A DNA stretch of 45,622 nucleotides from an uncultured Micavibrio sp. (GTDB lineage Bacteria > Patescibacteriota > Minisyncoccia > Moranbacterales > GCA-2747515). Under the pieces are notes generated by a model that searched no databases, had not been told where the DNA came from, and was given only the letters and a program-made list of their open reading frames with translations. The stretch covers positions 1 to 45,622 of the forward strand of contig CAZHQB010000003.1 in NCBI GenBank assembly GCA_964534895.1, written 5' to 3'. This document shows positions 8,172 to 8,425 of this stretch, piece after piece (the stretch's first letter is position 1; each line of letters starts with the position of its first letter). Made by a program: the position numbers and the translations under genes.

Positions 8172-8425
8172 TTAAAACTTGATTTGCATGAGTATAAGGT
8201 ATCAATTCAGACATTGACATTTGAAATAGATTTTTTGGGTTGGGTAATGTTTTTTAATTATAAAACACTTAGAACTGTGACAAAAAACGAATGATGAATA
8301 ATGTTAATGTGGATAAAGTAAATAAAAGTATAATTCAATCATATAAAGGATTACTGAGTTATGGAAATACTTATAAGCTGAAAAAGGATATTTTGGATAT
8401 AGAAGGTATTGATGATATACTGTAG
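8172..8425 (+). pseudogene. Degenerate C-terminal fragment of a DGR-type reverse transcriptase
   Basis: Manual translation: LKLDLHEYKVSIQTLTFEIDFLGWVMFFNYKTLRTVTK, then a frameshift in the A-run 8282-8287, then KRMMNNVNVDKVNKSIIQSYKGLLSYGNTYKLKKDIL...stop 8423-8425. This fits RT domains 6/7 (LxLxLHxxK, DFLGW) and the thumb motif SYxGLLxxGN. Confidence 0.75.

What the first reader, a model, noticed from the sequence alone, without database searches (positions are those of the whole stretch)
8172..8425. Unannotated frameshifted reverse transcriptase fragment in apparent intergenic DNA
Seen: LKLDLHEYKVSIQTLTFEIDFLGWVMFFNYKTLRTVTK / KRMM...IQSYKGLLSYGNTYKL, broken by a one-base shift in the A-run 8282-8287. 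From recall, this matches the DGR RT pattern LxLxLHPxK...GxDFLGW...LRTxTKxR...SYxGLLxHGN. Substitutions at usually conserved sites (HP to HE, G to E before IDFLG, HG to YG) suggest real decay, not just a sequencing error. Upstream CGATATATTGTAGATCAT (RYIVDH, 8073-8090) and a nearby VIL may be the eroded RYxDDFVIL catalytic motif; this last point is speculative.
Basis: partly seen in the sequence, partly recalled or inferred. Interest (0 to 1): 0.8.

Follow-up and report, generated by a model that had tools for sequence, protein, structure and literature searches.

The report
Dead DGR: reverse transcriptase stump
This is the broken tail end of a reverse transcriptase left behind when a diversity-generating retroelement decayed, beside its still-intact target gene; this is a common fate for such elements in ultra-small bacteria.

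Summary
Window 8148/8172-8285 and 8282-~8387 encode, in two frames, the last ~90 residues (RT motifs 6-7 and thumb) of a DGR-type reverse transcriptase. One base is missing at the six-A run 8282-8287. In the whole 1.08-Mb genome these are the only two of 28,397 six-frame pieces that hit a profile of relatives' DGR RTs (E 1.3e-9 and 1.3e-3).

The first ~255 codons with the catalytic motifs, the template repeat and avd are all absent.

The ORF just upstream (7371-7979) is the intact DGR target. Its homologues sit in complete target-TR-(avd)-RT cassettes with adenine-only TR/VR mismatches. It is under purifying selection (dN/dS 0.15).

The cassette lies between the alpha and beta genes of a 2-oxoacid:ferredoxin oxidoreductase. 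One sister species has an empty site; another keeps only the target gene.

Inactivated DGRs are reported as frequent (PMC5758913), and this scan has noted similar wrecks in other genomes. Verdict: real, correctly read, ordinary. Low interest.

The parts
5381..7087 (+). 2-oxoacid:ferredoxin oxidoreductase alpha/gamma-type subunit gene (left flank of the insertion)
   Evidence: Pfam POR_N 1.4e-48 and POR 4e-30. 88.6-89.4% aa identity to G001 and G003.
7160..7188 (.). Perfect 13-bp-stem palindrome after the alpha gene; a repeat found across the genome
   Evidence: Inverted repeat I4. 12 other places in the genome. -22.7 kcal/mol, z -6.3.
7236..7264 (+). Promoter-like site of the target gene (TTGATA-17-TATAGT with TG)
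   Evidence: Best-scoring site in the scan, 10 of 12. The -10 region is conserved in G003.
7297..7364 (+). Conserved 5' leader of the target gene with a predicted hairpin that pairs the ribosome-binding site
   Evidence: 81% identity over 69 nt with G003 and found nowhere else. Fold z -3.8. No Rfam match.
7371..7979 (+). Intact DGR target (variable-protein) gene 'orfX', 202 aa; variable region about 7842-7970
   Evidence: Homologues in 31 of 301 genomes of the order. They sit in complete target-TR-(avd)-RT cassettes with adenine-only TR/VR mismatches. TR peptides of relatives hit only 7842-7970 in the genome. dN/dS 0.15 against G003.
8016..8048 (+). Intrinsic terminator of the target gene
   Evidence: 14-pair stem followed by a T-run. 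-18.2 kcal/mol, z -5.1. Region conserved with G003.
8049..8147 (.). Unassigned spacer; the left deletion junction lies somewhere here
   Evidence: No similarity to RT, TR or avd, intact loci or the native intergenic DNA (374 of 1000 shuffles >=).
8148..8285 (+). RT remnant, first half (RT motifs 6-7; solid homology from 8172), frame of 7980
   Evidence: HMM positions 257-305, 34.4 bits. Genome-wide E 1.3e-9. tblastn 41-58% identity.
8282..8287 (+). Six-A run where one base is missing (shift to the frame of 7982)
   Evidence: Relatives' codons at this site. The same run appears in contigs of 4 runs.
8282..8387 (+). RT remnant, second half (thumb, SYxGLLxHGN region), frame of 7982
   Evidence: HMM positions 313-350, 12.6 bits. 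Genome-wide E 1.3e-3. Colinear second segments in tblastn.
8388..8450 (+). Native upstream region of the beta gene with a promoter-like site at 8394-8421; not part of the RT
   Evidence: 76% identity to the empty-site intergenic DNA of G001 and to G003. 0 of 1000 shuffles reach the score. TGGATA-16-TATACT.
8451..9338 (+). 2-oxoacid:ferredoxin oxidoreductase beta subunit gene (right flank)
   Evidence: TPP_enzyme_C 5.4e-35 and PFO_beta_C 5.2e-22. Present in 12 of 12 genomes of the genus.

Best explanation
The finding is the 3' stump of the reverse transcriptase gene of a dead diversity-generating retroelement (DGR).

A CPR-type cassette (target gene, template repeat, avd on the opposite strand, RT) was once inserted between the alpha and beta genes of a 2-oxoacid:ferredoxin oxidoreductase. 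Deletion then removed the template repeat, avd and about the first 255 RT codons, including all catalytic motifs. A few terminal RT codons were probably lost too.

What remains of the RT is about 240 nt. It lies between the target gene's terminator and the beta gene's own promoter. It has lost one base in an A-run, has changed three conserved residues, and has drifted towards AT. It has no start and no catalytic domain, so it most likely does nothing.

The target gene (7371-7979) survives with its own promoter, leader and terminator and is under purifying selection. Its once-hypervariable C-terminal tip is now frozen.

Shown here: the homology, the missing parts, the intact target, the empty site and the target-only site in sister species. 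Inferred: the order of events (whole-cassette insertion, then independent deletions) and the lack of present function.
For: - RT homology in two colinear frames. These are the only 2 hits among 28,397 genome-wide pieces.
- Hits by RTs of 5 of 5 verified DGR loci, but not by 2 non-DGR RT-like ORFs.
- No RVT_1, no Avd family, and no TR copy or Avd by tblastn/blastn in the 90%-complete genome.
- orfX homologues lie 0.8-0.9 kb upstream of RTs on the same strand in 10 of 27 fetched loci.
- TR/VR pairs of 78-136 nt differ almost only at TR adenines: 24/24, 18/19, 18/18, 16/16, 7/7, 21/22 and 17/20 mismatches. Avd of L061 matches NF033474, E 1.8e-18.
- G000 and G003 orfX differ at 9 of 11 VR columns that are Asn codons in related TRs, against 6 of 23 columns without A (Fisher p 0.0035). 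This is a footprint of past mutagenic homing.
- dN/dS is 0.15 outside the VR.
- Decay of the stump: 51.5 bits against 75-120 bits for intact RTs; GC 24%; 3 conserved residues replaced.
- G001 has an empty site, and G003 has orfX but no stump.
- The VR and the stump are identical in contigs of X1, X2 and X3 (3 studies; X1 and X2 may be the source).
Against: - The genome is only 90% complete in 112 contigs, so an RT, TR or avd in an unassembled part cannot be excluded.
- Each half of the stump is still an open frame (pieces 8100-8291 and 8273-8422). That is somewhat unexpected for 24%-GC DNA evolving neutrally for long, so the inactivation may be recent or some constraint may persist.
- No close intact relative of this cassette was found, so the size and order of the deletions are inferred from relatives only 36-38% identical in orfX.
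- G001 and G003 are equally distant from G000, so 'insertion in a G000/G003 ancestor' cannot be told from 'precise loss in G001'.
- No expression data: no listed run holding the stretch is on record as RNA.
Confidence: 0.9

Rival explanations
1. The DGR still works in trans. An RT, avd and TR elsewhere in the genome (in the unassembled 10%) diversify orfX, and the stump is only a relic of an older copy.
For: The genome is 89.98% complete. Remote targets are known for DGRs (PMC5758913, passages seen). Some relatives with orfX homologues carry RTs on other contigs, for example G049 and G017.
Against: No RVT_1, no Avd and no TR-like copy in 1.08 Mb. The window's VR has a 4-codon deletion seen in none of the 15 other aligned family members. 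The VR is identical in contigs of three runs; note that contigs drop rare variants.
Confidence: 0.04
2. The stump has been co-opted. It may serve as spacer or regulatory DNA for the beta gene. Or it may make a small thumb-only peptide through -1 ribosomal slippage on A-AAA-AAC (8282-8288), which would join the two frames exactly.
For: Both halves are still open frames. The heptamer at the break has the X-XXY-YYZ form of known -1 slippery sites (sequence; the rule is recalled). The stump lies just upstream of the beta promoter-like site.
Against: G003 has the same operon and orfX without the stump, and G001 has neither, so the stump is dispensable. The beta promoter region is native DNA outside the stump. 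There is no start codon with a ribosome-binding site at the RT-like part, and a terminator lies upstream. Homologues encode this site in one frame. Three conserved residues are lost and the profile score is halved.
Confidence: 0.04
3. The break is an assembly or sequencing error at the homopolymer, and the region is one continuous ORF.
For: Homopolymers are error-prone. Only one base is involved.
Against: Contigs of 4 runs from 3 studies show the same six A with no indel; X3 (depth 6) and X4 (depth 3) are not marked as possible sources. Even if mended, the ORF would hold only ~90 C-terminal residues without any catalytic motif.
Confidence: 0.02
4. The fragment comes from another class of RT (group II intron, retron, Abi/DRT), or the similarity is chance.
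For: The short fragments get no Pfam hit. Full-length DGR RTs of relatives score best in NCBIfam against the group II intron RT model, below its cut-off.
Against: Genome-wide E 1.3e-9. The best hits are RTs inside verified DGR cassettes, and two non-DGR RT-like ORFs do not hit. A DGR target gene lies directly upstream.
Confidence: 0.01

Closest known systems
DGRs of CPR/Patescibacteria: architecture B3, TR-(avd)-RT, of Wu et al. 2018 (PMC5758913; passages read); 'DGR clade 2' of Roux et al. 2021 (PMC8144416; passage read)
   Same: Intact relatives of this cassette (L061, L062, L063 and others) have target, TR, avd on the opposite strand, and RT, with adenine-only TR/VR mismatches. The window keeps the target gene and the RT tail in the same order and on the same strand.
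   Different: Here the TR, avd and about 255 RT codons are gone, so it cannot diversify anything. I could not see the supplementary tables of Wu et al., which might assign this VR to one of their 'UVR' classes.
Inactivated or degenerate DGR loci. Wu et al. [quoted passage not shown] Thiohalocapsa PB-PSB1 has 'degenerate' loci with missing or pseudogenised machinery (bioRxiv 10.1101/2023.09.22.558884; passages). In cyanobacteria a variable-protein paralogue keeps remnant TR-VR homology without an RT, and Anabaena sp. 90 has a degraded cassette (PMC7517822; passages).
   Same: Loss of the diversification machinery while a target gene is retained. The idea that the components are removed once a variant is fixed is stated in PMC7517822.
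   Different: This case keeps only the RT 3' end. It sits inside a metabolic operon. Sister species show the empty site and a target-only state.
Bordetella phage BPP-1 DGR (mtd-avd-TR-brt), the prototype (recalled; no call)
   Same: Same kind of system: an error-prone RT copies a TR into the C-terminal VR of a ligand-binding protein.
   Different: Different gene order. The target has no recognised CLec/FGE Pfam domain (0 Pfam families at E <= 10 for orfX; among the 16 aligned members only two single-member hits to domains of unknown function at E 0.05-0.06, no CLec/FGE family). This locus is dead.

Membership tests
Functional DGR | RT of the DGR clade with intact catalytic motifs (fingers/palm, YxDD) | tested here: not met
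   Only HMM positions 257-350 of 359 are present. The upstream 171 nt are not RT-like. No RVT_1 anywhere in the genome.
Functional DGR | Template repeat that matches the variable repeat except at adenines | tested here: not met
   No second copy of 7830-7990 in the genome by sensitive blastn. Relatives' TR peptides hit only the VR itself. Caveat: the genome is 90% complete.
Functional DGR | Accessory gene avd (typical of architecture B) | tested here: not met
   NF033474 gives no match at E <= 1. tblastn with two Avd proteins gives E >= 0.44.
Functional DGR | Target gene with a C-terminal variable region | tested here: met
   orfX aligns over its length with targets of verified DGRs and shares the ...W...CRFxxVR end. 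Differences from G003 are concentrated at TR-Asn columns.
DGR-type RT (as the origin of the fragment) | Closer to RTs that sit in verified TR/VR cassettes than to other RT classes | tested here: met
   5 of 5 verified DGR RTs hit at E 7e-9 to 1e-6. Non-DGR RT-like ORFs L009 and L010 give E >= 6.6 or no hit. No RT-class phylogeny was made, and NCBIfam has no model that these DGR RTs pass.
Programmed -1 frameshift gene | Slippery heptamer plus conserved two-frame organisation in homologues | tested here: not met
   The heptamer A-AAA-AAC is present, but all 13 relatives with the motif (of 17 RTs examined) encode the site in one frame.

The most novel reading that the evidence does not exclude
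Three sister species may catch one DGR cassette at three stages at the same site inside an oxidoreductase operon: empty (G001), target gene only (G003), and target plus RT stump (G000). The target stays under purifying selection in both carriers. That would be a natural example of 'diversify, then freeze and domesticate'. A second RT 3' stump lies beside an orfX-family gene in an unrelated genome (G049), and about half of the family lacks an adjacent RT. Together these hint that loss of the machinery with retention of the target is the usual life cycle of this family, possibly with a non-random deletion pattern that spares the RT 3' end.
Probability: 0.25. Interest if true: 0.35.

Novelty: new member of a known kind. 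Interest (0 to 1): 0.2.

Why it matters
For annotation: 8148-8387 should be labelled an RT pseudogene fragment, and 7371-7979 a former DGR variable protein rather than a plain hypothetical protein.

For biology: it adds one clean, datable example to the already reported abundance of inactivated DGRs. The empty site and the target-only site in sister species show that the diversified gene can outlive its mutator. It does not open a new question.

Tried and rejected
- **Eroded YxDD at 8073-8090.** A long BLAST extension for L014 (7836-8285) suggested LSLDTLTLNLF ~ LPLGNLTSQLF and YILKKIHRYIV ~ YYLRYVDDFIL. The profile test gives -2.0 bits, and 205 of 1000 shuffles score as well. Rejected.
- **RT stump flanked by two copies of native beta-upstream DNA.** This rested on a 22-nt match at 8147-8168. 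374 and 524 of 1000 shuffles reach the score. Rejected.
- **MAFFT alignment A1.** It misplaced the right end of the G003 spacer. Local alignments corrected this.
- **Pfam and PDB sequence searches with the fragments.** No RT hit; the fragments are too short.
- **Rfam on 6900-8700.** Nothing relevant.
- **Search for a closer intact cassette.** The metagenome scan with orfX found nothing. With an alignment it found 8 loci, the best 44% identical. Fragment A against longer proteins found no candidate sharing three 5-residue words.
- **Naming orfX.** No Pfam or NCBIfam family. The PDB profile search gave only spurious designed-repeat hits. The Atlas lists only 'hypothetical protein' clusters, commonest in Minisyncoccota, with a weak DUF5701 lead.
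- **Expression.** No RNA holder was listed.
- **Reading TGA as sense.** It does not continue the RT frame; the frame reads IMLMWIK* after the stops.

Full report
**Observation.** One frame gives LKLDLHEYKVSIQTLTFEIDFLGWVMFFNYKTLRTVTK and then stops. The frame one base back gives KKRMMNNVNVDKVNKSIIQSYKGLLSYGNTYKLKK... The switch lies at the six-A run 8282-8287.

I took 42 ORFs of >=200 aa from 20 RT-bearing loci of relatives; PF00078 was found in 24 of 61 genomes including G000. I ran them against the window with tblastn. Thirteen of the 17 DGR-type RT ORFs (299-423 aa, plus one partial ORF of 241 aa) hit 8148/8172-8285 at E <= 8e-5. For most of them a second, colinear segment lies in the other frame at 8282-8398. 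Examples are L016 (q261-307 then q306-344 of 353, E 3e-14) and L014 (E 6e-13).

A profile built from those 17 RTs aligns the two pieces to positions 257-305 (34.4 bits) and 313-350 (12.6 bits) of 359. Against all 28,397 six-frame pieces of the 1.08-Mb genome, these two adjacent pieces are the only hits with E <= 10 (1.3e-9 and 1.3e-3).

**How decayed it is.** There are 15 profile columns conserved in >=80% of the 17 RTs inside the fragment. Eleven are kept.

The fragment scores 37.0 + 14.5 bits. The same region of 9 intact RTs scores 75-120 bits; one of those 9 was in the profile's training set. GC is 24%, against 42.5% for the gene upstream and 31% for the window.

At the break, relatives read T-K-K/R/N-R-M/V from A-rich codons in one frame, for example ACA AAA AAA AGA ATG in L017. 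One base is therefore missing in or just after the run. Contigs of four public runs from three studies carry the same six A with no indel. Two of the runs may be the source of this assembly; X3 and X4 are not so marked.

**Limits of the fragment.** The 57 residues encoded by 7980-8150 score -2.0 bits against the RT profile, and 205 of 1000 shuffles do as well. The long BLAST extension seen for L014 is therefore not evidence.

At the other end, 8388-8453 is native DNA. It matches the alpha-beta intergenic region of G001, which has no insertion, at 76% over 66 nt (E 1.7e-10; 0 of 1000 shuffles). So the RT-like stretch is about 8148 (solid from 8172) to about 8387. It holds RT motifs 6-7 and the thumb only. 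The motif names are from my knowledge of RT domain structure, not from a call.

**What surrounds it.** The fragment lies between the two subunit genes of a 2-oxoacid:ferredoxin oxidoreductase, alpha at 5381-7087 and beta at 8451-9338 (Pfam).

Directly upstream, on the same strand, is ORF 7371-7979 ('orfX', 202 aa; no Pfam or NCBIfam family). It has a strong promoter-like site at 7236-7264 and a terminator at 8016-8048. orfX has homologues in 31 of 301 genomes sampled from the order, G000 included.

I fetched 27 loci with such homologues.
- In 10, an RT gene lies 0.8-0.9 kb downstream on the same strand.
- In one (L048), only a 38-aa RT tail is present.
- In 16, no RT lies in the fetched flank. 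Flanks were 0.5-5 kb, and a few are too short to judge.

In the extended intact loci the order is target, an Asn-rich template repeat, avd on the opposite strand, then RT. Avd of L061 matches NF033474 at E 1.8e-18.

The VR/TR pairs (78-136 nt) differ almost only at TR adenines:

| Locus | Mismatches at TR adenines |
|---|---|
| L061 | 24 of 24 |
| L062 | 18 of 19 |
| L063 | 18 of 18 |
| L064 | 16 of 16 and 7 of 7 |
| L065 | 21 of 22 |
| L068 | 17 of 20 |

. orfX is thus a DGR variable-protein gene, and these relatives have architecture B3 of Wu et al. 2018. According to that paper, B3 accounts for 90% of CPR DGRs (PMC5758913, passages read).

RTs of 5 of 5 of these verified cassettes hit the window fragment (E 7e-9 to 1e-6). 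Two non-DGR RT-like ORFs do not.

**What is missing.** The genome (89.98% complete, 112 contigs) has:
- no RVT_1 match;
- no other hit to the DGR-RT profile;
- no Avd family match;
- no second copy of the VR, and no TR-like or Avd-like sequence by blastn or tblastn.

The 99 nt between the terminator and the fragment (8049-8147) resemble nothing tested. Compared with intact relatives, the template repeat, avd and about 255 RT codons have been deleted. The last few RT codons were probably lost as well.

**The target gene is alive and carries the DGR's footprint.** Against its G003 orthologue (66% identity), orfX has dN/dS 0.15 outside the VR and 0.46 inside it; dS is near saturation.

Within the VR, the two species differ at:
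- 9 of 11 columns that are Asn (AAY) codons in the TRs of related cassettes;
- 6 of 7 columns with other A-containing codons;
- 6 of 23 columns without A at codon positions 1-2 (Fisher p 0.0035; the TRs come from distant relatives).

This pattern is what mutagenic homing leaves. The element was therefore active in, or after, the common ancestor of G000 and G003. The window's VR also has a 4-codon in-frame deletion seen in none of the 15 other aligned members. It is identical in contigs of three runs. Both points fit a frozen VR.

**History of the locus.** The beta gene is present in 12 of 12 genomes of the genus. In six of them (G001, G002, G005, G006, G010, G011) alpha and beta are separated by only 41-172 nt. 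Only G000 and G003 carry orfX there, and only G000 carries the RT fragment.

G003 has the orfX cassette followed directly by the native hairpin and beta-upstream DNA of the empty site (90.5% identity to G001 over 95 nt). G001 and G003 are about equally distant from G000: alpha 88.6 and 89.4%, beta 92.2 and 89.8%, two further genes 79-81%. One insertion followed by loss in G001 therefore cannot be told from insertion in a G000/G003 ancestor.

The simplest reading is that a whole cassette was inserted and then suffered independent deletions. The deletion in G003 was clean. In G000 it left the RT stump. This order of events is inferred, not shown.

**Mechanism, stated plainly.** The fragment has no start, no catalytic residues and no template, and it lies downstream of a terminator. 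It most likely does nothing.

The beta gene is served by its own promoter-like site in the native DNA (8394-8421), which is conserved in G001 and G003. This explains how an insertion with a terminator is tolerated inside the operon.

I considered a -1 slip on A-AAA-AAC, which would join the frames exactly. I give it little weight, because homologues use one frame and the product would still be a thumb-only piece.

**Comparison with what is known.** Wu et al. [quoted passage not shown]

Degenerate loci with missing or pseudogenised machinery are described in Thiohalocapsa. Orphan variable proteins, and the idea that the components are removed after an optimal variant is selected, appear in cyanobacteria. 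For all four papers I saw passages only, not whole texts or supplements.

This scan's own notes list several similar wrecks in other genomes, including CPR-type ones. I treat these as leads only. The find here is therefore a new member of a known kind.

**Verdict.** The explanation (dead DGR: RT 3' stump plus a surviving target gene) has about 0.9 confidence. Interest is low (0.2). The only mildly unusual features are the position inside a metabolic operon and the three-state comparison with sister species.

Noticed in passing
window 7160-7188; also G000 contigs C2, C12, C28, C30, C40, C85: The perfect palindrome GTAGGGACAGGTTT/AAACCTGTCCCTAC recurs at 12 other places in the genome. Variants follow the alpha gene in G001 and G003. 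It may be a REP-like or terminator-like repeat family. Contigs of the runs break or branch there.
   Followed up: partly
window 7297-7364: The 5' leader of orfX is 81% identical to G003 over 69 nt, more than many coding parts. It is predicted to fold so that the AAAGGAG ribosome-binding site is paired (z -3.8). No Rfam match, and not found upstream of other family members.
   Followed up: partly
L048 896-1009 (G049:C3), minus strand: A second, independent RT stump: a 38-aa tail (...SYLGLLLYGNEHELREDI...) about 0.5 kb downstream of an orfX-family gene. It matches profile positions 326-353 (E 0.0074) and also shows H->Y in the HGN motif.
   Followed up: partly
loci L042, L045, L046, L049-L051, L053, L055, L071-L073: Many orfX-family genes have no RT and no adenine-type repeat in 1.5-5 kb of flank. 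They may be orphaned targets, or remote targets of DGRs elsewhere in their genomes.
   Followed up: partly
window 7371-7540; L059, L060, L068: The N-terminal ~55 residues of orfX also occur at the start of DGR targets with quite different C-terminal parts (E 2e-13 to 7e-6). This suggests a shared N-terminal module.
   Followed up: no
window 7890-7905 (VR): A 4-codon in-frame deletion in the variable region relative to all 15 other aligned family members.
   Followed up: no
window 7075-7240: Run X2 holds a second 166-nt contig with 9 differences around the palindrome, at lower depth (8.9 against 30.2). This is strain-level variation or another copy of the repeat region.
   Followed up: no
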